From Patescibacteria group bacterium (GTDB taxonomy: Bacteria > Patescibacteriota > Kazan-3B-28 > UBA10110): a DNA stretch of 46,851 bases. Positions 16,537-46,785 of the stretch are shown here, piece after piece (positions within the stretch are counted from its first letter, which is position 1; each line of letters opens with the position of its first letter). The translations under genes were made by a program, and so were the position numbers. Where the stretch lies: assembly GCA_041652335.1 (NCBI GenBank), contig JBAZHL010000001.1:1-46851 (forward strand), read 5' to 3'. Below the pieces are notes generated by a model that ran no database searches, was not told where the DNA came from, and saw nothing but the letters and a program-made list of their open reading frames with translations.

Positions 16537-16670
16537 GTCATTCCCGCGAAAGCGGGAATCCAGACAAGAACATAAATTTTTTATTTTTATTTCTGGATCC
16601 CCGACCCGGATGCTCCGCTCCGATCGGGGATGACAACTGGGAGTTATATTCCTGCCTTCGCAGGAATGAC
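16537..16670. repeat. Cluster of three palindromic repeat units between dciA and recF; the last one supplies the recF 3' end
   Basis: The units are gtcattcccgcgaaagcgggaatc (16537-16560), ggatccccga...tcggggatgac (16595-16634) and attcctgccttcgcaggaatgac (16648-16670). An AT-rich spacer separates the first two. Confidence 0.8.
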
Positions 16671-17756: not shown

Positions 17757-18847
17757 TAGCTCCGCAGCGGCATAATGATGTAGGTCAGACCAGATTTCTC
17801 ATCAGCCGGACGGATCAACCCTGGGTTAAGCTTGCCCACCATCTCCACCGCTACACTCTCACCACCGATACCGTTTAGAGCATCCAAGACGTACCGAGCG
17901 TTGAAGCCGATCTCGTTATCGTCACCGGTTACCTCGGCCGATACGCTGGATTTAAAGTTGCCCAACTGTGACGAGCTGGCCTCCACATTAATTCCGCCTT
18001 TGCCAAAAGTAAGTTTAACGTTGTTGGCACTCTCTCTGGCAAAGAAGCTGGCGGTCTTAACTACCCCTAATAGATCGTGGGCAGAAACGATCGCCTTAGT
18101 CTTAAAGTTTTTGGGGATCACCTGAGTGTAATCCGGGTATTCGCCTTCGATCACCCGTGATACCAGATCCATATCCGGGAAACTAAACATGATCTGGTTA
18201 TCCGAAACTGTGATCTTGATCTTCTCCCCTCCACTGATCACCCGATAGATCTCTTGGATGGTCTTGATCGGGACAATAAATTTAGCCTCTTCCTTGGTAG
18301 GAACGGATAGCACCTTCTCCGCCAACCGATAGCTATCGGTAGCGGCCAGCTTTAGGGTGTTGTTTCCAACTACAAAGTAGACACCAGTTAAAATCGGTCG
18401 CGACTCATCAAACGACGCCGCAAACCCCACCTGGTTGATCGCCGACTTTAATAGGTTGCCGTCGATCTCCAATACCTCCTTACCCTTAACCTCCGGGATA
18501 CTGGGGAACTCATCAGCCGGCATACCATTAAGGTTTGCCTCACTCTTATCCGTTTTGGCGTAGAGGATACTCTCTCTGTCCTCGAGCTCGATCTTATCTT
18601 CCACCAAACTCCCTACAAAACTACTCAGTACTCGACCCGGCACGGTAATTGAACCAGGCTGCTCGATCTTCCCTCCTAAATAGTAGCTGATACCCATCTC
18701 TAAATCGGTGGCGGAGAGAATCACCTGATTCTCGTCCACTTTGATCAGCACATTATTAAGAATCGGCAAGGTGCTTTTACTGGCAACGATCTTATCTAAG
18801 ACCAATAGCCCCCTTTTTAGCTTTTCTAACGAGACAGATATCTTCAT
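17756..18847 (-). CDS. dnaN: DNA polymerase III beta subunit (sliding clamp)
   Basis: 363 aa with the three-domain clamp pattern (LPILNNVLI.., ATDSYRLA, MPLRS C-terminus). Its position is downstream of dnaA. Confidence 0.92.
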   Translation of the reverse strand: MKISVSLEKLKRGLLVLDKIVASKSTLPILNNVLIKVDENQVILSATDLEMGISYYLGGKIEQPGSITVPGRVLSSFVGSLVEDKIELEDRESILYAKTDKSEANLNGMPADEFPSIPEVKGKEVLEIDGNLLKSAINQVGFAASFDESRPILTGVYFVVGNNTLKLAATDSYRLAEKVLSVPTKEEAKFIVPIKTIQEIYRVISGGEKIKITVSDNQIMFSFPDMDLVSRVIEGEYPDYTQVIPKNFKTKAIVSAHDLLGVVKTASFFARESANNVKLTFGKGGINVEASSSQLGNFKSSVSAEVTGDDNEIGFNARYVLDALNGIGGESVAVEMVGKLNPGLIRPADEKSGLTYIIMPLRS

Positions 18848-19036
18848 TTCCTTTGCCTCTTATTAATAATTATCTTTATAAATTAATTAATCTAATAGTA
18901 ATAGAGAGTGGGGATTTGCGTATAAGTAATTTTCTGATGGCTGAGTTTAACTAAATTCTGTTTTGGCCTGGTGATGGATGGTGGATGGATTGTTGATAAA
19001 GTTTTTAGCTAAATACTCTCCCCACCCTAATCCACA
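18848..19036. other. Candidate oriC segment (AT-rich unwinding region plus degenerate DnaA boxes) in the dnaA-dnaN spacer
   Basis: A very AT-rich stretch lies at 18858-18905 (tattaataattatctttataaattaattaatctaatag). TGTTGATAA (18991-18999) and TAATCCACA (19028-19036) are each one mismatch from TTATCCACA/TGTGGATAA. GGTGGATGG-type degenerate copies lie at 18971-18990. Confidence 0.45.
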
Positions 19037-20421
19037 GCGTATAGTTTATCTTTAATAGTTTTAATCTCACTCTCTAAATCATTACTCTCCATCAGTAAGT
19101 TTTTGATCTTGTTGTAGTCGTGGATGATAGTAGTGTGATCCTTCCCCCCCAACTCTCGCCCGATGCTCTTATATGGCAGATCTAATTCTTCGCGCAGCAG
19201 GAAGATCAGCACCTGACGAGGAAAGACAATCTCTTTGTTACGCTTCTTACCCAACAGCTCATCTTTTTTAATGTCGTAGTGTTTGCAGATAGCTTTTACC
19301 ACATCGCTAACTTTGACTATCCGCTTGCCCGGGCTGAACAAGATCCCGCCCAGCAGATTCTCTACCTCGTCATTGGTGGGGATGGTGTTGTTAAGCTGCC
19401 CATAAGCCACCACGCGAGTTAATGCTCCCTCTAACTCTCTGATGTTGTTTTGGATCTTTCCAGCGATCGCCTCCAAAATGTAGTCTGGTAGCTGGAAATC
19501 CAAGTTCGATGCCTTTGAGCGTAACACGGCCAAGCGCATCTCATAGTTGGGGGCGGAGATATCGGCGATCATCCCCCACTCAAACCGAGAGCGTAACCGC
19601 GACTCTAACGTGGGGATGGCTTTAGGTGGTCGATCAGAGGCCAAGATGATCTGTTTGTTACTTTCGTAAAGCGTATTAAAGGTGTTAAAGAACTCTTCTT
19701 GGGTAGCTTCGCGTCCGGCCAAAAATTGGATATCGTCAATTATCAAACAATCCGCTTTGCGGTACTTCTCCCTAAACTCTTTAGTGGTTTTTTTATGGAT
19801 AGCGTCTACCAACTCGTTAGTAAATCTTTCGGAGGTGATGTAGACCACTTTCTTTTTAGGGTAGAGAGTTAGGATCTCATTGCCAACCGCCTGCAACAAG
19901 TGGGTCTTGCCCAAACCAACTCCACCATAAATAAATAGTGGGTTATAGGTGATACCCGGGGTTTTAGCCACCGCATTAGCAGCGGCGTTGGCCAGCTTGT
20001 TGCTCTCCCCCACCACAAACGTTTCGAAAGTGTAGCGCTGGTTTAAACGCTCTATCGAGTCGTTGGGGGTTGTGGTTTTGGTAGCGGTGCTGATGCGAGC
20101 GGCGGAGCTGCTGATCGGCATAGGCGCCGAGAATAACGTCGCCTGCTCTTGCTTGGGTGAACCGCCTACCATGTATTTGATATTAGTGAGGTTGGGTAGG
20201 CTTTTTGTTAAACAACGTCGTAGCTCTTTCTCGTACTTCTTCTGTAGCCACTCTAAAGTAAATACGTTTGGTACGCGAAGTAGCACCTCAGTGTCGGTGA
20301 TGTCTACGATCTCAGTGTTTTTTAACCAAGTGTTGAAGTTGGCCTTGCTCAAAGACACTTCGGCTTCACCCAAAACGTTTTGCCACAAGCGCTGTTTATC
20401 CACTACCCTTTCTTCACCCAC
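19027..20421 (-). CDS. dnaA: Chromosomal replication initiator protein DnaA
   Basis: AAA+ Walker A GGVGLGKTHLLQA, Walker B LIIDDIQFL, sensor motifs, and the C-terminal DNA-binding domain (DHTTIIHDYNKI). Confidence 0.95.
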   Translation of the reverse strand: MGEERVVDKQRLWQNVLGEAEVSLSKANFNTWLKNTEIVDITDTEVLLRVPNVFTLEWLQKKYEKELRRCLTKSLPNLTNIKYMVGGSPKQEQATLFSAPMPISSSAARISTATKTTTPNDSIERLNQRYTFETFVVGESNKLANAAANAVAKTPGITYNPLFIYGGVGLGKTHLLQAVGNEILTLYPKKKVVYITSERFTNELVDAIHKKTTKEFREKYRKADCLIIDDIQFLAGREATQEEFFNTFNTLYESNKQIILASDRPPKAIPTLESRLRSRFEWGMIADISAPNYEMRLAVLRSKASNLDFQLPDYILEAIAGKIQNNIRELEGALTRVVAYGQLNNTIPTNDEVENLLGGILFSPGKRIVKVSDVVKAICKHYDIKKDELLGKKRNKEIVFPRQVLIFLLREELDLPYKSIGRELGGKDHTTIIHDYNKIKNLLMESNDLESEIKTIKDKLYAVD

Positions 20422-28687: not shown

Positions 28688-30694
28688 ATGGACCTCACCA
28701 ATACCGCACTACTGATCGCTTTAGGGGCAGCCGTTTTAGCTCTGCTCTATGCCACTGCTTTAATAATTTGGGTTTTAAAACTGCCCGCCGGTAACGCCAA
28801 GATGCAGGAGATCGCGTTGGCCATTCAGCAGGGGGCAAAAGCATACCTAACGCGTCAGTACACTGCTATTGCTATAGTTGCGGTGGTGTTGGCGATCTTG
28901 CTATACCTAACTCTGGATCTAAACACGGCATTGGGATTCTTGGTGGGGGCGATACTGTCTGGCTTAGCCGGGGTGATCGGTATGAACGTATCGGTGCGCG
29001 CTAATGTTCGAACCACCGAAGCTGCTAATCACGGTATGGCGCGAGCTTTAGATGTGGCGTTTAAGGGTGGCTCCGTTACCGGGTTGTTTGTGGTGGGTTT
29101 GGCGCTTTTGGCGGTTAGCGGATTCTACTACATCTTTCGCGACATCCCCGCTTTAATTGGTTTAGGTTTTGGCGGTAGTTTGATCTCCATCTTCGCAAGA
29201 TTAGGTGGTGGTATCTACACCAAGGCAGCCGATGTGGGAGCGGATCTGGTAGGTAAGGTAGAGGCCGGTATCCCCGAGGATGACCCCAGAAATCCAGCCG
29301 TGATCGCCGATAACGTGGGCGATAATGTGGGTGACTGTGCTGGTATGGCGGCTGATTTATTTGAAACTTATGCAGTTACTGCGGTAGCTACGATCGTATT
29401 AGGCAACTTAGTCTTAGGCGGGGCACCTGCCGCTCTCACCTACCCGTTGCTCTTAGGTGCGGTCTCGATCGTGGCTTCTATTATTGGTACCCTCTTAGTT
29501 CGATTAGGCAAAAGTAAAAACATTATGGGGGCGCTCTATGTTGGGTTAGTGGCGAGTGGGATCCTGTCGGCCATCGGGTTCTATTATGTGTCGATCAATA
29601 CACTATCTGGCCTTATCCTTTCTCCGATGAGTTTGTTCTACACTTCACTGATTGGGTTGGTCGTTACTGGGTTGATGGTAGCGATCACGGAATACTACAC
29701 CTCTACTTCGTACGGTCCGGTTAAGAGTATTGCTAACGCTTCGGAAACCGGTCATGGTACTAACATTATTCAGGGCTTAGCGGTTGGTATGAAATCGACA
29801 GCTCTGCCGGTGTTAGTGATCATCGCTGCTATTTGGGGAGCGTATGCATTAGCCGGTCTCTACGGTGTCGCGATCGCGGCGATGTCGATGTTATCTATGA
29901 CCGGCATCATCGTGGCAATTGATGCCTATGGCCCCATTACCGATAACGCTGGCGGGATCGCCGAGATGGCCAATTTGCCAGAGAAGGTGCGCAATGTCAC
30001 CGATCCGTTGGATGCGGTCGGTAACACCACTAAGGCCGTTACCAAGGGTTATGCTATCGGCTCGGCAGCCTTGGCTGCTATTGTGCTGTTCGCGGCTTAC
30101 GCCCAAGAGCTACAGCATTTGGCCGGTAAGAGTTACGACTTTATGTTGGGGGATCCCAAGGTACTGATTGGGTTGTTTATCGGCGGGTTACTCCCCTATC
30201 TATTTGCCGCTATCTCAATGGAAGCGGTAGGTAAAGCCGCCGGCAGTGTGGTTAAAGAAGTTCGCCGGCAGTTTAAATCGATCAAAGGAATTATGGAAGG
30301 AACCGCCAAGCCCGACTACGCCAAAGCGGTTGATATTGTTACCCGCTCAGCCATCAAAGAGATGGTTGTTCCAGCGTTAATACCCGTGGTGGCTCCGATC
30401 GTGGTGGGCTGGTTGTTGGGTCCGGTAGCTTTGGGCGGTATGTTAGTGGGTAGCATTATTACCGGCATCTTTGTGGCGATATCGATGACCACCGGTGGAG
30501 CCGCGTGGGATAACGCCAAAAAATATATTGAGACTGGCCACTTGGGCGGCAAGGGTTCCGAGGCTCACAAAGCGGCAGTTACTGGCGATACGGTTGGTGA
30601 CCCCTACAAGGACACTGCTGGTCCGGCCATTAACCCGATGATCAAGGTTATTAACATCGTTGCCTTACTCATCATTGGTTTATTGATCAAATAA
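28688..30694 (+). CDS. hppA: Membrane-bound proton-translocating pyrophosphatase, K+-independent type
   Basis: [41 protein letters not shown] and [16 protein letters not shown]. The discriminating motif reads [10 protein letters not shown] (Lys variant, nt 30020-30049), which marks K+-independent enzymes. Confidence 0.92.
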
Positions 30695-30697
30695 ATA

Positions 30698-30925
30698 GTG
30701 GAGACTGTTAGGTTAGTCGACCATCAAATTCGAGTTGTTGTTACCCAGACCGAGGGGGTGATCACCATTAAATTACCGGATGGGTCATGCGTGGCATGGC
30801 CCGTTCGGGATGTGTCGGTGGTGCCGGGTGTAATGTATCTCACCCTGTCCCCTCAACCCACTCTGCCCGATAAAGCAGCCTTGGCTCGGCAGGTATTGCA
30901 GGAGATATTGCAGATTAACCAATGA
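30698..30925 (+). CDS. Hypothetical small protein
   Basis: 75-aa ORF with a GTG start and no recognisable motif. ATGA overlap with the VanW-family gene suggests translational coupling. Confidence 0.35.
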   Translation: METVRLVDHQIRVVVTQTEGVITIKLPDGSCVAWPVRDVSVVPGVMYLTLSPQPTLPDKAALARQVLQEILQINQ

Positions 30926-32770: not shown

Positions 32771-33712
32771 ATGATCTATTTCTTGTACGGCGAAGACGAT
32801 TTTCGGATCAGACAGCGCTTGGCCGAGCTCCGGGCGGGGTTGCTTAAAACCGATGCCAATTTAGACATACAGATCAAAGATGCGGCCGACCTAACTGCCG
32901 CCGATCTTAGCAGCTTGGTAATGACCCAATCATTACTGTCGATCAGTAAGCTGATAGTTATTAATCAGCCGATCGAGGACGGTGCCGACGATCTTCGTAA
33001 TGGTTTAGTTGAGCTATTGGGTCGTCCTCTACCGGAGGGGGTGGTGTTAGTATTGATCGAACGGCAGCCAGATCAGCGCACCAAATTATTTAAACTACTT
33101 AATAAATTTATGGCTGAAGCTTATCCACTACTCAGAGCTCCGGAGGCCAAGAAGTGGTTGCAAGATCGGGCCAGAGCCCAGGGCGTTCCGATCGATGATG
33201 CAGCTACCAGCATATTGGTTGAAAGTTTTAGCGACGATCTCTGGAGAATGAGTAGTGAGTTAAATAAGCTCTCTACTTTTACTGCTAACCAACCGATCAC
33301 AAAATCCACAGTTGACCAGCTAACTCCCCGAACCCTTACCGACAATATCTTTGCGACCATCGAAGCATTAGCCAGGAAAAACTTCTCTCTATCTAATCAA
33401 TTGATCAATCGGCAGTTGTTGTTGGGGATGGCCGAGCAGCAGTTAATCGCTATGATCGCCTACCAGTTTCGTAATATCGTTTTAATCCGGGCCTGGCTCG
33501 ACCAGGGAATTAAACCGGCTGATCTGGCCGCTAAAACTGGACTTCATCCTTATGTGGTTCAAAAGACGACCGAGCTGTCGCGTCGGTTCTCCATATCGGA
33601 GTTGGCCAAAGTGTTTTACCTGCTTCAACGGGTGGATGCGGCGATCAAAACTGGTAAAACCCCACCGCGAGTGGGTTTGGATATTCTAACGGCGCAAGTA
33701 GTTAGTGCTTAG
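32771..33712 (+). CDS. holA: DNA polymerase III delta subunit
   Basis: MIYFLYGEDDFRI start, length, and the C-terminal helical domain pattern (DNIFATIEAL...). This is a moderate-confidence motif match. Confidence 0.7.
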   Translation: MIYFLYGEDDFRIRQRLAELRAGLLKTDANLDIQIKDAADLTAADLSSLVMTQSLLSISKLIVINQPIEDGADDLRNGLVELLGRPLPEGVVLVLIERQPDQRTKLFKLLNKFMAEAYPLLRAPEAKKWLQDRARAQGVPIDDAATSILVESFSDDLWRMSSELNKLSTFTANQPITKSTVDQLTPRTLTDNIFATIEALARKNFSLSNQLINRQLLLGMAEQQLIAMIAYQFRNIVLIRAWLDQGIKPADLAAKTGLHPYVVQKTTELSRRFSISELAKVFYLLQRVDAAIKTGKTPPRVGLDILTAQVVSA

Positions 33713-33950
33713 CGCTTTTGCGGGCAGCCTTAACTAATCGCGACTTCAATCGAGCTGCCTTATTCTTGTGGATCAGGCCGGTTTTGGCGGCCTTATCCAA
33801 AGATTTTTGAGCAGCCGATAGAGAGGCGCTCGTTGGCTTTTGGTGGGCGGTTTTCACCACCTTTTTGAGAGCTACCTTGATCTTTGAGGTAGCTACCCGC
33901 CTCCGGGCATCCCGCCGCATCTTCTTGATCGCTGACTTGATGATTGGCAT
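33702..33950 (-). CDS. rpsT: 30S ribosomal protein S20
   Basis: MPIIKSAIKKMRRDARRRV... is the basic helical S20 signature. The 3' end overlaps convergent holA by 11 nt. Confidence 0.9.
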   Translation of the reverse strand: MPIIKSAIKKMRRDARRRVATSKIKVALKKVVKTAHQKPTSASLSAAQKSLDKAAKTGLIHKNKAARLKSRLVKAARKSAKH

Positions 33951-33974
33951 AGTCGATAAATTTACTCTGCTATT

Positions 33975-36797
33975 CTATGTTAGATCCGTTTCATAGTAAA
34001 GGTCGGTGAGCGTGGGGCTGCCGCCAGTTTTTAAGATGTGAAGGTAAATATTGAGATAGACCTGGTTTACGAAGCTCCCCTTAACGACGTGGGCAGCGAA
34101 GCCCCCTGGGTGTCGACTAAAGCCAGCATAGAATTCCCCTAACGTTTTTGCGTTGCTACCTGCTGGAATCTGGTATCTCTCTGTACTGACTGTGTCGAGT
34201 ACCCTCGCCACATCTTCGCCGCTGCAGAGGATAACGCCACTCTTTGCGAATACCTCAATCGCCTGCTGGTTAATGGTCGATAGTGGTGAATGACTGACAA
34301 CGATCAATTTTTGGCCGCGATCTAACAGCGGTTGGTAGTGTTCCACAATATTTTGGGCAGTATCTTTGGTGATCGGTTTTAGATAGGCCTTAGAATCAAC
34401 CAGTAGGCTGACCGACTCGCCCGTGGCGTGATCGCGCAGATCGATAATAAAATCGGGGATAATATTCTCTTTTTGTTTGATGAGCCGGTTGAGGCCGGTA
34501 ACTGCCTTGACCCCATCGCCGTAGCGGTGGTCGATGTCAGCAAATCTGATCGAATACGTTAACTGATCTGGTAGCTCGCCGATACCCAATAATTTAGCCA
34601 GGCTGGTTTCGATCGCCAGTAATGTAAATGTCTCCCCCATTTTTCCAGTAACGTGTTTTAGCTCTCCCGAGATCTGGCTCATCGACTCGTAGTCTAACAG
34701 TTTACGGAGGCGTTGTTGCTCTGTTGGATCGGTAGTATAGCGGCTCAATAATGTTAGGGCATGGCTAAATAGGCGCTTGATCGCATACTGGGACGATTGA
34801 CCTTCCTGGGTGTTGATGTCGCGCCACAACACTCGTCCACGGTTGTAAAAATAGTTACCATCCACTTCCTGACCCTGAATGATTCTTGGCTCACGATCGC
34901 GGTGTAGGGCGTAGGTATTAGGCAGCATCCCCTCTTTATCGATTTGATCCACATATTCAACAAATAATCTGGCAAGCTCGTCACGATGCTCTCCGATTGT
35001 TGTTTCGGGGGGGAGGATATCAAATGCCCAAATTTTCTTTGGCCGCTGACAGCGGATAGCCAAATTAGGTGCTGGCTTGACCCATCGTTTAAATTTTTTT
35101 CCAACGCCAACATAATTTGGTTGGGGGGGTTGCATCCTGGGATGATAAAACAGTGTTGGCTCACTGACTAACAGTTCTCCCAACCAATGGGCGTCTGATC
35201 GGCGTGAAAAATAGTGAGGACGTAGCATCTCTTTCACCTTCCTCAGGGTAGCCACCCAGTCGGCGGTCGATATGTCTAATGCCTGAGGGTTGTCCCCCTT
35301 GGCTTGGCGATTGTATTCCGTCTCTAATGCCGACATAATAGCCTCGGCAGTACTGAGGCCAGCTGTAAATGATGGTCCATCGGGCAGTTCCTTATCAGTA
35401 GCAAAAAAGTAGACCAAATATGATAAATTTCGCAACTGCTGATCTCTACTTCGTTTGAGGACATAGTGTGCCACTTCTTTATTCGTCAGAATTGTCTTAG
35501 ATAGTCCCTCGGGGCCATGCTCGGTAAATATCCTTCGGAATATCGGATAGTACTGTGATTCAAATAATTTATATTTTTCCAATCGCCTTTCTGCATGGTC
35601 GTGCTTGGACAGATCCATTAATATATGAGCGAGGTAGCCATCCATGTGAACGTTGATACGCAAAGCCTTTGGGTATTTAATTTTGGATCCATTGCGCTGA
35701 CTCACTGACAGCTCACCCATACTGTCAAAGCTAAAATGAGGTTGCCAATGATGGCTAACCTTATATTCCCGATCAAGATTCTGTTTGATCCACTCAATAA
35801 AATGCCGACGCACCCATAACTTGTCTTCGGTAGGTACCTCGTCTACCAAATCGGTACAGTGGTTATAAAGGTAATGTTCTGGTGGCAGGTATTCTTCGCC
35901 ACTCAGGTTGCCGCTGATCAAGCCTGGCAATGTGCGATCTACTTTTCCCACCACGTTGCCCTGTCGATCCCGCTGGGTATAGTTGCCAGTTTTGCTACCA
36001 ATGTTCGCCTCAGCCAATAGATCCTCAGTAATCCGGATGTTGCCAGCCTGGTCATGTTCAACCTGGATCTTAGTAAAAGCCAGGTAGTTGGCGCCATAGA
36101 ATCCCCGCTCCTGGTTGATCGCCCGATCGTGGTCTTCGGGTGCTGGCTGGGGGTATTGGTAGTGAGCGATCTTCCTCTTGTTAAATCGGGTGATCTTATC
36201 TTTTGGCCCCCAGATTAAACTAACCGTCACGCGCTTGTCTGCGGCAATTGCCCGCTCGACCTGATCGCGGTCAGTGGCCGGTAGGTGATTGATGATAAAA
36301 CTTAGCTCTGTTTGTGGGTCATTAGGCTCCGGCCAATCAATCTTTCTCCCCTCGAAATAAGGTGGTAAAAAGTGTTTGCCGATTTTTGATGTGGAGCGAA
36401 AATGCTCCCAAAACAACCCTTCGTTACCAGGGAGTAAAAGCTCATCGCGGAATAAGGGCAGATTGTAGTCGGCCAGCGCCTGGTTAAACTCGCTCCTGGG
36501 TAAGACCACTACGCAGTTGTCGACGCTCTGGATATCTATCACTGTCCGCATGCGATGGCGGAACGGCTCACCGTTTAGGAACTCAGGCACCCCCGGCGCC
36601 CTGATTTCACTGACCGGCGTGGTGGGGGCAGTTTCCAAAGGATACAGTGCTTCGTAATCCGGTGTGAGCTCCTCATCGTCTAAATCGCGCGGCGGTCCCA
36701 GTTCGCCGATGTCATATTCGTCAGAGGGTGGTTGTTCAGACCTTCCGTTCATAGTTGGCAGGTGAAGTAACCATTTAGTGTAAACTGCTGGCTCCAT
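33975..36797 (-). CDS. Large uncharacterised protein with C-terminal PD-(D/E)xK (Mrr/restriction-endonuclease-like) domain
   Basis: Uninterrupted 940-codon ORF. Residues ~705-870 read GETFTLLAIETSLAKLLG...IPDFIIDL...SLLVDSKAYL...KLIVVSHSPLS..AIEVFAKSGVILCSGEDV, giving E722, D782/D786 and D801-S-K803. The N-terminal ~700 aa have no motif I recognise. The alternative start is M16. Confidence 0.6.
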   Translation of the reverse strand: MEPAVYTKWLLHLPTMNGRSEQPPSDEYDIGELGPPRDLDDEELTPDYEALYPLETAPTTPVSEIRAPGVPEFLNGEPFRHRMRTVIDIQSVDNCVVVLPRSEFNQALADYNLPLFRDELLLPGNEGLFWEHFRSTSKIGKHFLPPYFEGRKIDWPEPNDPQTELSFIINHLPATDRDQVERAIAADKRVTVSLIWGPKDKITRFNKRKIAHYQYPQPAPEDHDRAINQERGFYGANYLAFTKIQVEHDQAGNIRITEDLLAEANIGSKTGNYTQRDRQGNVVGKVDRTLPGLISGNLSGEEYLPPEHYLYNHCTDLVDEVPTEDKLWVRRHFIEWIKQNLDREYKVSHHWQPHFSFDSMGELSVSQRNGSKIKYPKALRINVHMDGYLAHILMDLSKHDHAERRLEKYKLFESQYYPIFRRIFTEHGPEGLSKTILTNKEVAHYVLKRSRDQQLRNLSYLVYFFATDKELPDGPSFTAGLSTAEAIMSALETEYNRQAKGDNPQALDISTADWVATLRKVKEMLRPHYFSRRSDAHWLGELLVSEPTLFYHPRMQPPQPNYVGVGKKFKRWVKPAPNLAIRCQRPKKIWAFDILPPETTIGEHRDELARLFVEYVDQIDKEGMLPNTYALHRDREPRIIQGQEVDGNYFYNRGRVLWRDINTQEGQSSQYAIKRLFSHALTLLSRYTTDPTEQQRLRKLLDYESMSQISGELKHVTGKMGETFTLLAIETSLAKLLGIGELPDQLTYSIRFADIDHRYGDGVKAVTGLNRLIKQKENIIPDFIIDLRDHATGESVSLLVDSKAYLKPITKDTAQNIVEHYQPLLDRGQKLIVVSHSPLSTINQQAIEVFAKSGVILCSGEDVARVLDTVSTERYQIPAGSNAKTLGEFYAGFSRHPGGFAAHVVKGSFVNQVYLNIYLHILKTGGSPTLTDLYYETDLT

Positions 36798-36818
36798 CCG
36801 TCAAACTGGCTCTCGGGG

Positions 36819-36847
36819 TTGACAGTCCCCCGGGGGTGTCGTATCGT
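36819..36847 (+). promoter_or_regulatory. Sigma70-like promoter candidate for nrnA (TTGACA-17 nt-TATCGT)
   Basis: ttgaca at 36819-36824, a 17-nt spacer containing the palindrome cccccggggg, and tatcgt at 36842-36847, with the ATG at 36867. The track ORF begins at this TTG, but I read that as the -35 box rather than a start codon. Confidence 0.3.
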
Positions 36848-36866
36848 TTACTATTCAAAGCACCAA

Positions 36867-38081
36867 ATGGAACTCACCCCAAAACAACAAGCCTTAGAGC
36901 TGATCAATAAATCCAAGCATATTCTGATCGCCCCCGGTCGAGCCGACGGCGATTCGATTGGTAGTGGGTTGGCACTCTATTTAGTCCTTTCTCGACTTGG
37001 CAAACAGGCCAGTTTAGTGGTGCTCGATCCCCTGCCGCCCAAGTTTAACTTTCTGCCCAATTTAGACGAGGTACAACATGAGTTTAACGGCCTGCGCGAT
37101 TTTGTAATTAGCTTGGATTGTACTTCGGCCTCCGCCGATAAGTTGGCCTACAACTTTCAGGACGAAAAATTGAACATTGTTATCACGCCTAAAGCTGGCG
37201 TCTTTAAATCGACCGATGTCAGTTTCTCCGAAGGCAATTTTCAGTACGATTGCTTGATCACTTTAGACGCTGCCGATTTAGAACAAGTTGGCTCGCTTTA
37301 TACGGACAACCCCAAGATATTTCAAAATGTACCGATCATTAACATCGATCATCATGCCAGCAACGACTACTACGGCGCGGTCAATTTAGTTGACCTAACC
37401 GCCACCTCCACGGCCGAGTTATTGGTCGGTTTGATCGAGGCGTTGGGCCCATCTTTGATCGATGCGGACGTAGCCACGGCTTTGTTGACCGGTATCATTA
37501 ACGACACCGGTAGCTTCCAGCATGCCAACACCACCCCAAAGTCCTTAACTATTGCCGCCCAGATGGTAGGTTTTGGCGCTCGCCATCAGGAGATTATCCA
37601 ATACCTATTCAAGACCAAAGCCTTTACGACCTTAAAGCTCTGGGGGCGAATCCTGACTAACGTCCAGCACGACCCCATTAGCCGACTGGTCTGGAGCTCG
37701 GCCTCCTTGTCCGATATCACCGAGACCGAGGCTACTGGGGAGCAGATCAGTGGGATTATTGACGAACTAATGACGAGCGTCCCAGAAGCTGATATAGTAG
37801 TTCTGTTGTCCGAGCGGGATCCTCAGGTGGTCTCGGGAAGCATTAGGACTAAAAAGGGAGTTGACGCTGCCGATATCGCCAAAATGTTTGGCGGTGGCGG
37901 TCACCATGGGGCCGCCGGCTTTAAGCTGTTAGATAGCGGTATTCCAGAGGCGGCAGCTACTGTGGTGGCCAAGATCAAGGAGTATCAAGCCAAGCGGCTA
38001 TCTGGGGCTACCCAGATCCCGGAAGAATCAGGAAATAATGGCTTGGAGCCTGCGATTCCCGACCTTGCCAAAAATGAGTAA
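36867..38081 (+). CDS. nrnA: DHH/DHHA1 phosphoesterase (NrnA-like oligoribonuclease/pAp phosphatase)
   Basis: GRADGDSIGSGLAL, INIDHHASN (DHH), INDTGSF, and FGGGGHHGAAGF (DHHA1 GGGH). Confidence 0.85.
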   Translation: MELTPKQQALELINKSKHILIAPGRADGDSIGSGLALYLVLSRLGKQASLVVLDPLPPKFNFLPNLDEVQHEFNGLRDFVISLDCTSASADKLAYNFQDEKLNIVITPKAGVFKSTDVSFSEGNFQYDCLITLDAADLEQVGSLYTDNPKIFQNVPIINIDHHASNDYYGAVNLVDLTATSTAELLVGLIEALGPSLIDADVATALLTGIINDTGSFQHANTTPKSLTIAAQMVGFGARHQEIIQYLFKTKAFTTLKLWGRILTNVQHDPISRLVWSSASLSDITETEATGEQISGIIDELMTSVPEADIVVLLSERDPQVVSGSIRTKKGVDAADIAKMFGGGGHHGAAGFKLLDSGIPEAAATVVAKIKEYQAKRLSGATQIPEESGNNGLEPAIPDLAKNE

Positions 38082-38104
38082 AAATGATATAATAAAGCAA
38101 AGAT

Positions 38105-38374
38105 ATGACACTCGCAACTACTAAAAAGAAGAAGATCATTGGCACCTACCAGGCGCATGTAAAGGATACTGGATCGGCTGAGGTTCAGGTGGCTTTGTTA
38201 ACAGAGAAGGTTAAAGAACTTACCCGGCACCTTAAGGTCCACCAAAAGGACTTTCATTCTCGCCAGGGTCTGTTTAAAATAGTGGGCAACCGCAGAAGGT
38301 TGCTTAACTACATCAAGACTAAGCACCCTAAAAAATATTCAGCTTTAATTGATAAGTTAAAAATCCGAAAGTAA
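38105..38374 (+). CDS. rpsO: 30S ribosomal protein S15
   Basis: 89 aa; DTGSAEVQVALLTEKVKELTRHLK.H.KD.HSRQGL is the canonical S15 sequence. Confidence 0.95.
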   Translation: MTLATTKKKKIIGTYQAHVKDTGSAEVQVALLTEKVKELTRHLKVHQKDFHSRQGLFKIVGNRRRLLNYIKTKHPKKYSALIDKLKIRK

Positions 38375-38507
38375 GGGCTGGGTGGGTTAAGAGAACCAGC
38401 ATAGAGCATAGAGCTCAGCGAATCTTTTTGTCAGGTTCGTTCGGTCCTACGCTTTATGTGCTGTCTCTTTCCTCCCATTTGCCCGGTTGCTTAGGATAGG
38501 AAGGAAC

Positions 38508-43480: not shown

Positions 43481-45736
43481 TTACAAGAAAGCGTTTAGCC
43501 GGGATATGTCGATTAGAGCGCGGTGTTTAAGAGTAAACATCTCCTCTTGCAACCGGGAAAATTCCCGCACTCGTTCAATTAATTTTACGTCACTACCAGC
43601 CAAGATCGGATCGCTAAGCTGCTCACCTAATATTCTTAAGCGAGTGCCAATCTTGCCGTACTCTCCGATAATCCCCTCAAGATCGGAGTAAGCGGTGGTC
43701 ACCATCTCTGGGGGTTCCTCGCCGTTACCGGCCAAGCCCCCCAGCCTTTGGTTTACCAAATCTTTTAGTGTACCCGCCTCGGGATTAGAGCCAGTGGGCC
43801 AATACTGTTCAACAAAATCAATCTGTACTTTTAACACCTCCTGTTCCTGACCAATATCTCCCCACAGTTCGACCCCTCCTCCACTTAGATAGTACTCAAG
43901 TCGCAAATCTTGCACCTCTCTCCATACCCCGATCGGTTGGCGAGTGCTACCATCCGATTCGTACAGTCGAGTGTCGGCCAGATCGATACCATGCCGCCGA
44001 CTATAGCGCTTAGCTATTTTATACAATCCCTTTGCCCACCAAAACAGTGACCAAGCTCTGGCTAATCTCCCCTCGCGAGAGATCAGTAGGTTGATGGGGA
44101 GTTTGTCTAACTGCTCCATAACCGAATCGATAGCTCCCGGCGTCGATTCGCGAAGCTTCGCTATCGCTGAATCCAGGATCTGCAAAAGTTTGTTGTTAGT
44201 TGTAGTCTCTGTTTCCTTATCCTCTTCGCGGACGATGTCAGCCGAGTGTCGGCTTTGGCCAAAAGCGTATTCCATGTTTTTGCGAACCTCCCCCAAGCGG
44301 ATCGGTGTCATCTGCCAGTCAACCAGTAATGGCAATTGGCGATCGGACAAAATCCTCCAGGCATTGCCCAAGGCGTGCTGGGCAGTCTGTTTTAATGATG
44401 CGACATAGGCAGCATCCTCCATCTTAGAGTCCGTAAACTGTTCGGATAGAAAGATGGCCTCACCTAAGTAGCGCCGCTCAATCCGATCAATCCGCTCATG
44501 GGCGGTTAACAGATTTTCCTCCCAAGTGGTTTTAATGCGCATCTCCAGTTCTTTTTCCGAGACAGATTCGCCGGTTGTCTGAGCCTCTGTCCTGATTCTG
44601 GCCTCGATCATCTTGAGATCCAACTCGAGGCCACTGAGTACTCCTTTGTATGACCCATCGGCGCTACCGTATAGCTCCATCTTAAACATCTGTTCCCACG
44701 AAGAGTTGTACGCCGCATTTAGCCGACGATTAGCGGAGTTAGCTCGTGGTCGGAAGGTTTCCATTAATAAACGTAGGCGATCAGCCGGATGCTCGCGGTA
44801 TTTCTCATACGATCTGGATTCGGGGTCTATCCCCAGCATTTTTTTTCGCAGCTCGTCTACGTTCCTTTCGATCTTTTCTGAGGCTTCCTGGAGCTGTTTT
44901 TTATCTTTGCTATCCGGCATCTCCGCGACGGACGATTGCTGATCTTTTTTAAATCCCTTTGGCCCAATAACTAACACCGGGTTGGGCTCAGCCTTCCCTT
45001 TTCCCTTTTTGGTCTGGGGGGATAACAGTGTATCGAGCTCAGCTAAGGTTAGCTGTTTTATCCCTGGCTTTGTTGGATCAGGTTGGAGGCGCGGATCTCG
45101 CATTAAAATCACCTGCTTACCAGTGGCCGGATCCTTGGCCATATGGATCAATACCCCGTGTTTTAACGGATGTCCTTGGCTGTCTAATCCCCCGTCCACT
45201 AATATGATTAATGCCCGACCCTGTTTAATATGTTCGTGTGCCGATATTGGATCTGTAGTGGTTTCGGCAAAATATCCATTCTCTTTGATCAATTGCCCTG
45301 CCTGATTTAATTTAATACCGCTTTTTTCATCAAAACCATGACGCTCGGCCATTTTTAGCAAAGTGTCTTCGAGTAACTTCCGGCCATCGGGATTTTCTAA
45401 TCCCTTTTCCGCAAAAACATATTGACGAGCGTTCATCCAACAAGCGACCACACAGGCAAAGGGGTGGGATTGTTTGTGAGTCTCGCCAAACTGTTCCGCT
45501 AAAGTCGCCCTAGCTGAACCTGACTCTGGTGTGGGCGCCGGGGTGGCTATTCTCCTCTCCGCTCGCAAGGGTTGGGTGGTAGCGGCCTCGGCCGCCGTTG
45601 CCTGCGATGGTAATCCTAAACTTTTAGTCAGAAACTCTTCCGGATCGTCCCCGCGATGGGGCGGCGTCGGATCGGTTGGGGTTGGAGGTATGCCCAGCTC
45701 CGTCAAAAAATCATTGGGGTCTAACGGACCACTCAT
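43481..45736 (-). CDS. Uncharacterised 751-aa protein with N-proximal papain-like (C39-like) cysteine peptidase signature and a long helical C-terminal region
   Basis: Pro-rich first ~80 aa. Then QSHPFACVVACWMN (Gln89, 6 residues before Cys95), LKHGVLIHMA (His193) and VILMRDP (Asp214), in the order and spacing of papain-fold/C39-like peptidases (nt ~45077-45484). The remaining ~530 aa are charged and helical with no motif I recognise. I see no signal peptide or TM segment. Confidence 0.55.
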   Translation of the reverse strand: MSGPLDPNDFLTELGIPPTPTDPTPPHRGDDPEEFLTKSLGLPSQATAAEAATTQPLRAERRIATPAPTPESGSARATLAEQFGETHKQSHPFACVVACWMNARQYVFAEKGLENPDGRKLLEDTLLKMAERHGFDEKSGIKLNQAGQLIKENGYFAETTTDPISAHEHIKQGRALIILVDGGLDSQGHPLKHGVLIHMAKDPATGKQVILMRDPRLQPDPTKPGIKQLTLAELDTLLSPQTKKGKGKAEPNPVLVIGPKGFKKDQQSSVAEMPDSKDKKQLQEASEKIERNVDELRKKMLGIDPESRSYEKYREHPADRLRLLMETFRPRANSANRRLNAAYNSSWEQMFKMELYGSADGSYKGVLSGLELDLKMIEARIRTEAQTTGESVSEKELEMRIKTTWEENLLTAHERIDRIERRYLGEAIFLSEQFTDSKMEDAAYVASLKQTAQHALGNAWRILSDRQLPLLVDWQMTPIRLGEVRKNMEYAFGQSRHSADIVREEDKETETTTNNKLLQILDSAIAKLRESTPGAIDSVMEQLDKLPINLLISREGRLARAWSLFWWAKGLYKIAKRYSRRHGIDLADTRLYESDGSTRQPIGVWREVQDLRLEYYLSGGGVELWGDIGQEQEVLKVQIDFVEQYWPTGSNPEAGTLKDLVNQRLGGLAGNGEEPPEMVTTAYSDLEGIIGEYGKIGTRLRILGEQLSDPILAGSDVKLIERVREFSRLQEEMFTLKHRALIDISRLNAFL

Positions 45737-46785
45737 TTGTTTTCCTCCTTATTCCAGACATACATACTGTTACGCAGGATTTCTCCACCGCGTTTTCTCT
45801 GCATCTCCCTAAATTGCTTTAGTAACCAGGGGTTGCCGTGGGCAAAGGCGGTAACGGAAGATAGGCTGCCAGCCGCGTCTAATCCCATAATAATCCTGCC
45901 GGTCACCCCGTTGACCATCAATATGTCAGTAGGATCTATGCCCATTATTTTTAATGGATCAGGCTCCGTGCTGCCTCTTTCCGGCTGCCACTTTCTCTTA
46001 TCAGTAAACACTTTATCCCCTCCTGGGGTGGGTCTAATATCGCCAGCTTTCTCCCATTCCTCGATCTTGGCCTGTGCCTTAGCGACATCCAGCCGCAAGC
46101 GTTTTAAAACCTTTTCCGGGTGCTTCATCCCCACCACTTGCTCCAATTGTTTTAGGGTAAACTGCCTTTTGTAATTACTTCCAGTCAGCATCATCAAACG
46201 CATAAATTCTTCCCGATACCCGCTCCCCAATTTGTAGTTTCCCCACCAGTCCTTTGGATTTATTTCCCCTCGCTCATCCGTCACTCGGGCATTCATTAAG
46301 CCGAAAGCATTAGTCAGCGTCTGATTAATGTCAAACTGTTCCCCAGAGTTACGATCGGGGTAATAATTCTTGTTATCTTGGGCGTCTACAAAATCCACTA
46401 AGTGTTTAATCCGTACGCCGCGGTTGCGCTCGCTTTTTATTACACTAAGATAGGCATCGGTTGGCATTTGAGCTAATCTATCTTCTGGAACCTCAGGCGC
46501 GGGCAAGGCTCCTAATTGTATCAGCCAGTCGTACACTTTTTTGGCGCTGCAACCAGTGTAGGGCGAAGACTGTCGCCCGTGGTGCTCAAAGTACATTCGG
46601 CCAAAAACTATTGTCTTGTCGTCTGGAGTAATCACCGTAGTCAAATGCGAGGCCAGACTGTCTCGGTGTGGATCCCGATATTTTTCTATTTCATCGTCCT
46701 CAAACAGTGGGGTCCAGACGTCGGTCTCAGACGATGCGGATATATCCATTATTATCCCGATCCCCAAGTGGCTGGGGTCAGCCAT
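45733..46785 (-). CDS. Uncharacterised protein, upstream partner of the peptidase-like gene (possibly 5'-truncated by the window edge)
   Basis: 350-codon ORF from the first in-window ATG. Its reading frame stays open all the way to 46851, so the true N-terminus may lie outside the window. Its stop overlaps the downstream start (ATGA at 45733-45736). I recognise no motif. Confidence 0.5.
   Translation of the reverse strand: MADPSHLGIGIIMDISASSETDVWTPLFEDDEIEKYRDPHRDSLASHLTTVITPDDKTIVFGRMYFEHHGRQSSPYTGCSAKKVYDWLIQLGALPAPEVPEDRLAQMPTDAYLSVIKSERNRGVRIKHLVDFVDAQDNKNYYPDRNSGEQFDINQTLTNAFGLMNARVTDERGEINPKDWWGNYKLGSGYREEFMRLMMLTGSNYKRQFTLKQLEQVVGMKHPEKVLKRLRLDVAKAQAKIEEWEKAGDIRPTPGGDKVFTDKRKWQPERGSTEPDPLKIMGIDPTDILMVNGVTGRIIMGLDAAGSLSSVTAFAHGNPWLLKQFREMQRKRGGEILRNSMYVWNKEENK

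What the first reader, a model, noticed from the sequence alone, without database searches (positions are those of the whole stretch)
33975..36797. Orphan 940-aa protein: about 700 aa of unassignable sequence fused to a C-terminal PD-(D/E)xK (Mrr-like) nuclease signature, sitting in a ribosomal-protein neighbourhood
Seen in sequence: this is an uninterrupted 2.8-kb minus-strand ORF that ends 24 nt upstream of rpsT on the same strand, so co-transcription is possible. It is divergent from nrnA. Its GC and CGATCG density look native rather than island-like. Residues ~705-870 (nt ~34188-34685) carry E722 (GETF), D782/D786 (IPDFIID) and D801-S-K803 (LLVDSKAY), followed by a beta-alpha unit (KLIVVSHSPLS..AIEVFAKSGVILCSGEDV). 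That order and spacing are expected of Mrr/restriction-endonuclease-like folds. The preceding ~700 aa have an acidic, Pro-rich head followed by mixed alpha/beta sequence. They contain no Walker A, helicase, methyltransferase, HNH or HEPN motif that I can recognise. Inference: this is a nuclease effector coupled to a large novel sensing or targeting module. It could be a single-gene defence or DNA-processing factor, possibly specific to this lineage. It is my top candidate for something undescribed in the window.
Basis: partly seen in the sequence, partly recalled or inferred. Interest (0 to 1): 0.72.

Follow-up and report, generated by a model that had tools for sequence, protein, structure and literature searches.

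The report
Dispensable lineage-specific nuclease with unknown N-terminus
This is a real gene for a large protein whose tail end is a conserved DNA-cutting (PD-(D/E)xK) domain and whose first ~700 residues match nothing known; it belongs to a tiny family of ultra-small (Patescibacteria/Kazan) bacteria, and close relatives lack it at exactly this spot, so it is an optional, probably restriction-like gene rather than part of the ribosomal-protein machinery.

Summary
The ORF (33975-36797, minus strand; 940 aa, more likely 925 aa from ATG 36752) is real and native in composition.

**Nuclease domain.** E722, P781-D782, D/E801 and K803 are conserved in all ten known family members (23-41% identity). 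AlphaFold predicts an alpha-beta-beta-beta-alpha-beta core around them. The only high-probability Foldseek matches are PD-(D/E)xK nucleases (MspJI, PaqCI, Can2, T7 endonuclease I-like). D786 is not conserved, and "Mrr-like" specifically is not supported.

**N-terminal ~700 aa.** This part is as conserved as the nuclease and is modelled with moderate to good confidence. It has no sequence or fold match.

**Family size.** An exhaustive search of 1.84 billion representative proteins found nine clusters including self. Every member that carries a source name is from Patescibacteria.

**New result.** The gene is a self-contained promoter-plus-ORF cassette. It fills the spacer between the divergent nrnA and rpsT promoters in four sampled lineages. 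It is cleanly absent from the same conserved block in six others, including the three closest relatives. rpsT keeps its own conserved promoter, so the rpsT link is positional, not functional.

**Interpretation.** It is the fastest-evolving gene in the block, and its divergence tracks the host tree, which points to vertical descent with repeated loss. My best reading is a dispensable stand-alone endonuclease with a novel targeting module, probably restriction-like defence. A non-essential repair or salvage nuclease is the main rival.

The parts
33975..36797 (-). Full ORF (940 aa with stop) for the nuclease-fusion protein, called X below
   Evidence: It is identical to NCBI 'MAG: hypothetical protein WC400_00170, Patescibacteria group bacterium' from residue 16 onward.
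36750..36752 (-). Likely true start codon (M16 of the 940-aa reading, giving 925 aa)
   Evidence: NCBI and JGI call the start here. The promoter-like site spans the upstream ATG. The starts and Shine-Dalgarno sequences of the L003 and L006 orthologues align with this position.
36777..36804 (-). X's own sigma-70-like promoter, TTGACG-N16-TACACT
   Evidence: TTGACG-N18-TACATT is present upstream of the orthologues in L003 and L006. It lies inside the X-specific insert.
34009..36839 (-). X-specific segment (2831 bp) that has no counterpart in the closest X-less relative, where a 143-bp spacer sits instead
   Evidence: blastn of window against L016: homology stops at 34008 and resumes at 36840. 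tblastn finds no remnants of X in six empty loci. There are no terminal repeats.
36603..36797 (-). Residues 1-65: acidic, Pro-rich tail predicted to be disordered
   Evidence: pLDDT below 50 for residues 1-65. Composition.
36690..36719 (-). Conserved short peptide EYDIGELGPP (residues 27-36) inside the disordered tail; possibly a docking motif
   Evidence: Conservation peaks locally within an otherwise variable tail.
36552..36602 (-). Residues 66-82: conserved basic motif PE.L..PFR(H/R)R.R
35163..36551 (-). Residues 83-545: folded N-terminal module of unknown fold. It has alpha/beta parts carrying the GPKWKITRF, GSNFV.FTK, LAEANIGTK, DRTLPGL and LYNQ motifs, then a long helical part that includes a ~50-residue helix at 388-438.
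   Evidence: The AF2 model mostly has pLDDT 70-93 here. Conservation equals or exceeds that of the nuclease core. There is no Pfam, PDB or Foldseek match and no internal duplication.
35034..35162 (-). Residues 546-588: basic linker (pI 10.8), variable in length, predicted to be disordered
   Evidence: pLDDT below 50 for residues 553-586..
34692..35033 (-). Residues 589-702: conserved alpha/beta segment before the nuclease (AFDI.P, YAL.RD..PR motifs)
34188..34691 (-). Residues 703-870: PD-(D/E)xK nuclease core. Order of elements: alpha (703-736), beta, alpha, beta (783-789), beta (795-803), alpha, beta (830-835), alpha, beta.
   Evidence: Secondary structure in both AF2 models. Foldseek top hits are MspJI, PaqCI, Can2, T7 endonuclease I-like, CDIN1-like and VRR-NUC. 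Motif conservation.
34632..34634 (-). E722 (GETF), the helix-1 acidic residue
   Evidence: Invariant in all 10 sequences. Codon checked.
34452..34457 (-). P781-D782, the 'PD' of the motif at the start of beta-2
   Evidence: Invariant. Checked.
34389..34397 (-). D801-S802-K803, the '(D/E)xK' at the end of beta-3
   Evidence: Position 801 is D or E in every member and K803 is invariant. Checked.
33972..34000 (-). Conserved rpsT promoter TTTACT-N17-TAGAAT. It overlaps the last codons and the stop codon of X.
   Evidence: The same element is present in the X-less relatives, so it belongs to rpsT, not to X.
33702..33950 (-). rpsT (ribosomal protein S20), downstream neighbour
36819..38081 (+). nrnA-type DHH/DHHA1 phosphoesterase gene with its promoter (TTGACA-N17-TATCGT at 36819-36847); divergent neighbour, likely start at 36864
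   Evidence: The promoter is conserved in X-less loci.

Best explanation
X is a stand-alone, metal-dependent PD-(D/E)xK endonuclease. Its catalytic residues are E722, D782, D801 and K803. The catalytic domain is tethered to a large module (~700 aa) that is specific to this lineage and most likely recognises the substrate and controls cutting.

That module has five parts:
- an acidic disordered tail carrying a conserved EYDIGELGPP peptide;
- a basic PFRHR motif;
- alpha/beta domains;
- a long helical domain;
- a basic flexible linker.

The gene is a self-contained cassette with its own promoter and ORF. It occupies the spacer between the divergent nrnA and rpsT promoters. It is dispensable, was inherited vertically, and has been lost repeatedly within a Kazan-type Patescibacteria clade. 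It evolves faster than every neighbouring gene.

The layout (recognition module at the N-terminus, cleavage domain at the C-terminus, no ATPase, no partner gene, no methyltransferase) matches Type IIS/Type IV restriction endonucleases and single-gene nuclease defences. I therefore infer that it cuts foreign DNA, whether phage DNA or imported DNA.

Shown here: gene reality, motif conservation, predicted fold, the presence/absence polymorphism and the separate promoters. Inferred: nuclease activity, DNA as the substrate, and the defence role.
For: **Motif.** E...PD...(D/E)xK is conserved across ten sequences that share only 23-41% identity.

**Fold.**
- The alpha-beta-beta-beta-alpha-beta core appears in two independent AF2 runs.
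- The second model has pLDDT 74.5 and pTM 0.64.
- D782 sits at the start of beta-2 and D801/K803 at the end of beta-3, as an antiparallel hairpin active site requires.

**Structural neighbours.** All Foldseek hits with probability of 0.9 or more are PD-(D/E)xK nucleases:
- MspJI, E = 7e-3, probability 0.99;
- PaqCI, probability 0.98;
- viral CDIN1-like and endonuclease I-like proteins, probability 0.96.

Can2 (probability 0.80-0.89) is also among the matches. Sub-threshold Pfam hits in two members fall on the RmuC and HSDR_N nuclease families.

**Accessory status.**
- The H+-PPase / VanW / holA / rpsT | nrnA / rpsO / pnp / UDG / rnj block is shared.
- X is present in the window, L003/L004, L005 and L006.
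- X is absent in L012-L017, including relatives whose NrnA is 82-87% identical.
- The boundaries are clean and no remnants remain.

**Rapid evolution.** X is 36-41% identical between lineages, against 48-79% for its neighbours.

**Vertical descent.** X identities track NrnA identities.

**No partner.** No conserved partner gene appears across nine loci. No methyltransferase lies in the window.

**Own promoter.** It is conserved in three loci.
Against: - No sequence profile from any known nuclease or defence family reaches significance.
- Foldseek E-values are modest (7e-3 at best), and I could not search the C-terminal domain on its own.
- I could not inspect the model coordinates, so clustering of the four catalytic residues is inferred from the secondary structure only.
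- The gene is not in a recognisable defence island. Only L002 has a KAP NTPase next to it.
- Staying at one chromosomal site while NrnA diverged by about 30% is longer than typical for defence genes.
- Its neighbours are nucleic-acid turnover and repair genes, which fits a salvage or repair role equally well.
- The family is tiny, so every conservation statement rests on ten sequences.
Confidence: 0.55

Rival explanations
1. X is a non-essential housekeeping nuclease for DNA repair, recombination or nucleotide salvage. It would cut damaged, recombining or imported nucleic acid. The neighbouring NrnA, PNPase and RNase J would then degrade the pieces to nucleotides, which these auxotrophic cells must scavenge.
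For: - Composition is native.
- Descent is vertical and congruent with NrnA.
- X is divergent from nrnA with closely spaced promoters.
- The surrounding block holds pnp, rnj, UDG and holA.
- Distant homologues lie beside ligA (L009), beside UDG and a DEAD helicase (L011), and near gyrB (L007).
- No defence-family hit was found.
Against: - The three closest relatives, and at least three other lineages, lack X at this site while keeping every neighbour. Any such role is therefore dispensable.
- X is the fastest-evolving gene in the block.
- The nrnA linkage is lost in the more distant members.
- These small genomes are so dense in nucleic-acid genes that adjacency carries little weight.
Confidence: 0.25
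2. The PD-(D/E)xK domain acts on RNA, or serves as a nucleic-acid-binding or regulatory module rather than as a DNA endonuclease. X would then be a lineage-specific RNA-processing or scaffold protein.
For: - The neighbourhood is rich in RNA-turnover and ribosomal genes: rpsT, rpsO, pnp, rnj and nrnA. In L007 the homologue follows rpmA.
- Some PD-(D/E)xK-fold proteins are RNases or non-catalytic. This rests on my own knowledge: the tRNA-splicing endonuclease, and the RPB5 N-terminal domain, which appears among the Foldseek hits.
Against: - The full catalytic tetrad is conserved in every member, which argues for an active enzyme.
- The high-probability structural neighbours are DNA endonucleases.
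- The ribosomal linkage is positional only, because the two genes have separate conserved promoters.
Confidence: 0.08
3. X is a selfish or mobile gene. It would be a free-standing homing-type nuclease or a transposon remnant that repeatedly targets the rpsT|nrnA intergenic site.
For: - X is present or absent at exactly the same intergenic site in different genomes.
- It is a compact cassette with its own promoter.
- It encodes a nuclease.
Against: - There are no terminal inverted or direct repeats, and no integrase or transposase.
- The copies are only 30-50% identical, and their divergence mirrors that of the host gene NrnA. This is the opposite of recent spread.
- Composition is native.
- No close copy exists anywhere in about 15 billion proteins.
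Confidence: 0.05

Closest known systems
Type IV / Type IIS restriction endonucleases with a C-terminal PD-(D/E)xK cleavage domain (MspJI, PDB 4f0p; PaqCI, PDB 8em1/8epx; FokI, PDB 1fok)
   Same: They are single polypeptides with an N-terminal DNA-recognition module and a C-terminal PD-(D/E)xK cleavage domain, and they have no ATPase. They are the best Foldseek matches to the model.
   Different: There is no detectable sequence similarity. X is about twice as long. Its N-terminal module matches neither the SRA-like domain of MspJI nor the recognition domains of PaqCI or FokI. No cognate methyltransferase lies nearby. The catalytic motif is E...PD...(D/E)xK; from memory, MspJI uses a D...QxK variant instead.
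Shedu (SduA, DUF4263) and similar single-gene nuclease defences
   Same: The concept is the same: a PD-(D/E)xK nuclease fused to a variable N-terminal sensing domain, encoded by one gene, with patchy distribution.
   Different: No PADLOC or Pfam match was found for any family member. X has the nuclease at the C-terminus after a much larger module that is conserved rather than variable. It is not located in defence islands.
RmuC family (PF02646)
   Same: RmuC is a large chromosomal protein with an N-terminal helical region and a C-terminal PD-(D/E)xK domain. One family member (P0003) gives a weak hit that falls exactly on the PDF...DSK region.
   Different: The hit is far below threshold (E = 0.15, 11.6 bits against a cut-off of 26) and occurs in one of ten members only. 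The N-terminal architecture is different.
   Same: Both have the generic PD-(D/E)xK core with an acidic residue in helix 1.
   Different: No Mrr_cat match was found at E of 10 or less. Mrr-like entries in BFVD rank low, with probability 0.15-0.69.

Membership tests
PD-(D/E)xK nuclease superfamily | Conserved catalytic signature: an acidic residue in helix 1, D at the start of beta-2, and (D/E)xK in beta-3 | tested here: met
   E722, P781-D782 and K803 are invariant, and position 801 is D or E in all ten members. Codons verified.
PD-(D/E)xK nuclease superfamily | alpha-beta-beta-beta-alpha-beta core fold | tested here: met
   The predicted secondary-structure order is the same in two AF2 runs, with pLDDT 78-91 over residues 780-900 in model 2. 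This is a prediction, not an experimental structure.
PD-(D/E)xK nuclease superfamily | Significant structural similarity to solved members | tested here: inconclusive
   All hits with probability of 0.9 or more are PD-(D/E)xK nucleases (MspJI, PaqCI; viral endonuclease I-like and CDIN1-like), but the best E-value is only 6.9e-3 with the whole chain as query. A domain-only search was not possible.
PD-(D/E)xK nuclease superfamily | Profile match to a curated family of the clan | tested here: not met
   Only sub-threshold hits were found: RmuC E = 0.15 and HSDR_N E = 0.041, each in one member. The PDB profile search found nothing.
PD-(D/E)xK nuclease superfamily | Divalent-metal-dependent phosphodiester cleavage | not testable with these tools
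   Needs biochemistry.
Mrr-type Type IV restriction enzymes | Mrr_cat (PF04471) catalytic domain | tested here: not met
   No Pfam hit in any of ten members.
Type II/IIS restriction-modification systems | Adjacent cognate DNA methyltransferase | tested here: not met
   No methyltransferase domain was found in any window ORF of 150 aa or more that was scanned. The 22.6-28.6 kb ORFs were not scanned, but in the relatives the corresponding genes are Wzy and glycosyltransferase genes. There is no consistent methyltransferase next to the homologues.
Known anti-phage defence systems (PADLOC-DB v2, including Shedu, Cap4-type effectors and HamA) | HMM match to a component protein | tested here: not met
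   There are no significant hits for the ten members. The best is DruD at E = 0.043 in one member.
Known anti-phage defence systems (general hallmark) | Patchy presence/absence among close relatives and rapid sequence evolution | tested here: met
   X is present in four and absent in six lineages that share the same gene block. It is the fastest-evolving gene of the block. This hallmark is not specific to defence.
Mobile elements / homing endonuclease genes | Terminal repeats, a recombinase, or near-identical copies in different genomes | tested here: not met

The most novel reading that the evidence does not exclude
The ~700-aa N-terminal region is a previously unseen sensor or recognition fold, and X is a new single-gene nuclease immunity (or foreign-DNA control) system. 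It would be confined to Kazan-type Patescibacteria, organisms in which few known defence systems are detected. The conserved EYDIGELGPP peptide in the acidic tail would act as a docking or auto-inhibitory switch.
Probability: 0.25. Interest if true: 0.65.

Novelty: new variant of a known kind. Interest (0 to 1): 0.45.

Why it matters
Patescibacteria (CPR) have tiny genomes, and known defence systems are rarely detected in them. How they discriminate or process foreign DNA is poorly understood, even though they depend on imported nucleic acids.

X is a ~107-kDa protein, expensive for a genome of this size. Some lineages retain it and sister lineages have cleanly lost it. It couples a recognisable cutting domain to 700 residues that match nothing known, either in sequence or in predicted fold.

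If it is a targeting or sensing module, it would add a new recognition domain to the nuclease toolbox and give one concrete, testable CPR-specific immunity or DNA-processing factor. If it is only a dispensable repair nuclease, it remains an ordinary lineage-specific member of a very large superfamily.

The work also removes a misleading cue. Adjacency to rpsT reflects where the cassette sits, between two divergent promoters, and is not an operon.

Tried and rejected
**Direct family assignment**
- I searched Pfam, NCBIfam, PADLOC, PHROGs and PDB sequences, with the single protein, with every family member and with family profiles. Nothing was significant.
- The armadillo-repeat and PEX5 hits of the profile searches fall on an insertion or on low-scoring helices. 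I rejected them as noise.

**Internal duplication or a second nuclease domain in the N-terminus**
- hhalign of six sub-domain profiles against each other gave all probabilities of 2.6% or less. Rejected.

**Operon with rpsT**
- Rejected as a functional link. rpsT has its own conserved promoter, which is also present in X-less genomes.

**Core housekeeping gene**
- This was my working idea after searches showed conserved synteny in four lineages. I rejected it once the NrnA-anchored loci showed six empty sites.

**Mobile element or homing**
- There are no repeats, no recombinase and no close copies, and divergence is congruent with the host. Rejected as unlikely.

**RNA element**
- An Rfam scan of 33000-38500 found nothing.

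**Integrase (RNase H-fold), GroEL, APOBEC and vWF-A Foldseek hits**
- Their probabilities are low (0.7 or less, mostly below 0.4), with high rmsd. I did not take them as evidence about the N-terminal fold.

**Searches that added nothing**
- A family-profile search of the 5.8-billion-protein word-indexed database added no members.
- The DNA-pattern scan of GTDB species representatives found one locus, and the scan of JGI metagenomes found two.
Full report

Yes. The minus-strand ORF 33975..36797 is uninterrupted for 940 codons. At 49% GC that cannot be chance. Other points check out as follows:
- The stop codon lies 24 nt upstream of the ATG of rpsT (33702..33950, Ribosomal_S20p).
- The gene is divergent from a DHH/DHHA1 NrnA-type gene.
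- Composition is native:
  - CGATCG is 1.06/kb in the ORF against 1.07/kb in the window.
  - GATC is 10.6 against 10.8/kb.
  - GC3 is 0.53 against 0.56.
  - Codon-usage distance lies within the range of 20 other genes.

Public annotation is 'MAG: hypothetical protein WC400_00170, Patescibacteria group bacterium', and it starts at M16, giving 925 aa. I favour that start for two reasons:
- A TTGACG-N16-TACACT promoter-like site (36804-36777) spans the first ATG.
- The same -35/-10 pair is found upstream of two orthologues. Their Shine-Dalgarno sequences and start codons align with M16.

**2. How isolated is it?**

No library gives a significant match, either for X or for any relative. This covers Pfam, NCBIfam, PADLOC, PHROGs and PDB sequences. 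Searches for relatives gave these results:
- An exhaustive phmmer pass over 1.84 billion representative proteins found nine clusters: self, seven full-length relatives of 923-1142 aa, and one 209-aa fragment from a 1-kb contig.
- A DNA-level scan of GTDB species representatives found one further orthologue, in candidate division Kazan bacterium RBG_13_50_9 (41% identity, L003).
- Every member that carries a source name is Patescibacteria.

X is therefore not a strict orphan. It belongs to a very small, deeply diverged family (23-41% identity to X).

**3. The C-terminal domain**

*Motif.* In the ten-sequence alignment, G721, E722, F724, P781, D782 and K803 are invariant. Position 801 is D or E in every member (DSK, ESK, DAK or EVK).

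*Predicted fold.* Two AlphaFold runs were made. The first used 3 sequences and gave pLDDT 46. The second used 10 sequences and gave pLDDT 74.5 and pTM 0.64. Both give the same element order:
- helix 703-736, carrying E722;
- strand 746-753;
- a helix;
- strand 783-789, starting just after D782;
- strand 795-803, ending with D801-S-K803;
- a helix;
- strand 830-835;
- a helix and a final strand.

This is the alpha-beta-beta-beta-alpha-beta core of PD-(D/E)xK nucleases. The acidic and lysine residues sit at the two ends of the beta-2/beta-3 hairpin, as expected.

*Structural neighbours.* With the whole chain as query, the only high-probability Foldseek hits are PD-(D/E)xK nucleases:

| Library | Hit | Probability | E-value |
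|---|---|---|---|
| PDB | MspJI | 0.99 | 7e-3 |
| PDB | PaqCI | 0.98 | 0.15 |
| PDB | Can2 | 0.80-0.89 | about 0.5 |
| BFVD | CDIN1-like | 0.96 | 4.2e-2 |
| BFVD | T7 endonuclease I-like | 0.96 | 9.5e-2 |

Lower-probability matches of the same fold include FokI and VC1899 in the PDB, and Mrr-like, VRR-NUC and UL24 proteins in BFVD.

*Limits.* E-values are modest, and I could not search the domain alone or inspect the coordinates. Two members give sub-threshold Pfam hits to nuclease families, RmuC and HSDR_N, on the motif region.

*Conclusion.* A PD-(D/E)xK domain with an intact active site is well supported, at about 0.85. "Mrr-like" specifically is not supported.

**4. The N-terminal ~700 residues**

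This region is not junk. Residues 161-384 are at least as conserved as the nuclease core. Most of residues 83-545 are modelled at pLDDT 70-93. The anatomy is:
- an acidic, disordered tail (1-65) that contains one conserved peptide, EYDIGELGPP (27-36);
- a basic PE.L..PFR(H/R)R.R motif (66-82);
- alpha/beta domains with long beta-hairpins and the motifs GPKWKITRF, GSNFV.FTK, LAEANIGTK, DRTLPGL and LYNQ;
- a helical domain that includes a ~50-residue helix (388-438);
- a basic disordered linker of variable length (546-588, pI 10.8);
- a conserved alpha/beta segment (589-702) leading into the nuclease.

No PDB or BFVD structure matches this region with useful probability. There is no internal duplication and no cryptic second nuclease domain. 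The function of this module is unknown. A substrate-recognition or regulatory role is inferred from its position only.

**5. Genomic context: the decisive result**

At first X looked like a core gene. These loci share the arrangement nrnA <- | -> X -> rpsT <- holA <- VanW:
- the window;
- L003/L004 (Kazan RBG_13_50_9);
- L006 (P0004);
- L005 (P0005), which is a 4.4-kb fragment and shows only X -> rpsT <- holA.

Using NrnA as a marker, I then fetched six further genomes with the same block: H+-PPase, a small ORF, VanW, holA, rpsT | nrnA, rpsO, pnp, UDG, rnj. None of them has X. In these genomes rpsT and nrnA are only about 130-400 bp apart (L012-L017). The six include the three closest relatives of the window organism, with NrnA 82-87% identical. 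The nearest X-bearing genome has NrnA only 70-72% identical.

Further detail on the site:
- DNA homology with L016 stops at window position 34008 and resumes at 36840. X therefore corresponds to a 2831-bp segment that replaces a 143-bp spacer.
- The empty loci hold no remnant of X.
- The segment has no terminal repeats.
- It lies exactly between two divergent promoters that are conserved whether or not X is present. These are the nrnA promoter (TTGACA-N17-TATCGT, 36819-36847) and the rpsT promoter (TTTACT-N17-TAGAAT, 34000-33972).
- The last 11 codons and the stop codon of X run into the rpsT promoter.
- X brings its own promoter.

The rpsT adjacency is therefore positional. Read-through into rpsT is possible but unnecessary.

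More distant family members sit elsewhere: after rpmA, between ligA and murA, after UDG/DUF7768, next to a KAP NTPase, and before a DedA-type gene. No recurring partner appears.

**6. Evolutionary behaviour**

X is the fastest-evolving gene in the shared block:

| Gene | Identity to window (%) |
|---|---|
| X | 36-41 |
| holA | 48-50 |
| VanW | 52 |
| S20 | 57-58 |
| NrnA | 70-71 |
| PNPase | 75-77 |
| H+-PPase | 79 |

Pairwise X identities follow the NrnA identities. L003 against L006 is 50% for X and 80% for NrnA. The window against either is 36-41% for X and 70-72% for NrnA. That argues for vertical descent with repeated loss, not for recent horizontal spread or homing.

**7. What it most likely is and does**

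*Shown:*
- X is a real, expressed-looking gene with its own promoter.
- It has a conserved PD-(D/E)xK signature and the predicted fold.
- It has a conserved but unassignable N-terminal module.
- It is dispensable, evolves quickly and is confined to one lineage.

*Inferred:*
- X is a metal-dependent endonuclease.
- Its N-terminal module selects the substrate.

The architecture is a recognition module followed by a C-terminal cleavage domain, with no ATPase, no partner gene and no methyltransferase in the window. This matches Type IIS and Type IV restriction enzymes and single-gene nuclease defences. Patchy retention and fast evolution point the same way. I therefore favour a restriction-like role against foreign DNA, at about 0.45 within an overall 0.55 for the stated model.

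The main rival is a dispensable repair, recombination or nucleotide-salvage nuclease (0.25). It is suggested by the nucleic-acid-turnover neighbours, and these data cannot exclude it. An RNA-directed or non-catalytic role (0.08) and a selfish element (0.05) are less likely.

**8. Comparison with known systems and novelty**

X works like a modular restriction endonuclease, but it fails the membership tests for Mrr, for Type II/IIS restriction-modification systems (no methyltransferase), for RmuC and for every PADLOC family. It belongs to the PD-(D/E)xK superfamily by motif and predicted fold only. I rate it a new variant of a known kind: a known catalytic domain joined to a large, apparently novel module.

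Interest is moderate, at 0.45. Uncharacterised nuclease fusions are common in metagenomes. On the other hand, a conserved 700-aa region that is confidently modelled and has no fold match, together with the clean presence/absence polymorphism in a CPR lineage, makes X a concrete candidate for a CPR-specific DNA-control factor.

Noticed in passing
window 33972-34000 (minus strand); L003, L005, L006 and L012-L017 at the equivalent place: A sigma-70-like promoter for rpsT (TTTACT-N17-(C)ATAGAAT, followed by GGCA/AGCA..GGTAAA) is conserved at DNA level across ten genomes, whether or not X is present. In the window its -10 box contains the stop codon of X.
   Followed up: yes
whole window: GATC occurs at 10.8/kb against 3.9/kb expected from base composition. 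CGATCG occurs at 1.07/kb against 0.24/kb expected. This strong palindrome enrichment is spread evenly over the window. No Dam-type methyltransferase was seen among the window ORFs scanned.
   Followed up: partly
window 43481-46785 (minus strand); L012-L017 downstream of rnj: Two large ORFs (751 aa and 350 aa) have no Pfam match. In related genomes the same position after rnj holds unannotated ORFs of very different sizes (299-1156 aa). This is a second variable spot in an otherwise conserved block.
   Followed up: no
window 16644-20421 and about 20.4-21.3 kb: recF, dnaN and dnaA lie on the minus strand, and the cumulative GC skew reaches its minimum near 20-22 kb. The replication origin is probably in the window, about 14 kb from X.
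   Followed up: no
L002 1005-3617: The distant homologue P0003 is preceded by an 870-aa KAP-family NTPase. This is the only neighbour in any locus that hints at a defence-type context.
   Followed up: no
window 36690-36719 (residues 27-36): A short peptide, EYDIGELGPP, is conserved inside an otherwise variable, acidic tail that is predicted to be disordered, even in members only about 28% identical overall. It looks like a docking motif, but it does not match the beta-clamp or SSB-tail consensus motifs that I know of.
   Followed up: partly
window 30694-30922; L012-L017 (for example L016 4483-4710): Relatives carry a conserved ~75-aa ORF without a Pfam match between the H+-PPase gene and the VanW gene. 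I did not examine the corresponding 228-bp gap in the window.
   Followed up: no
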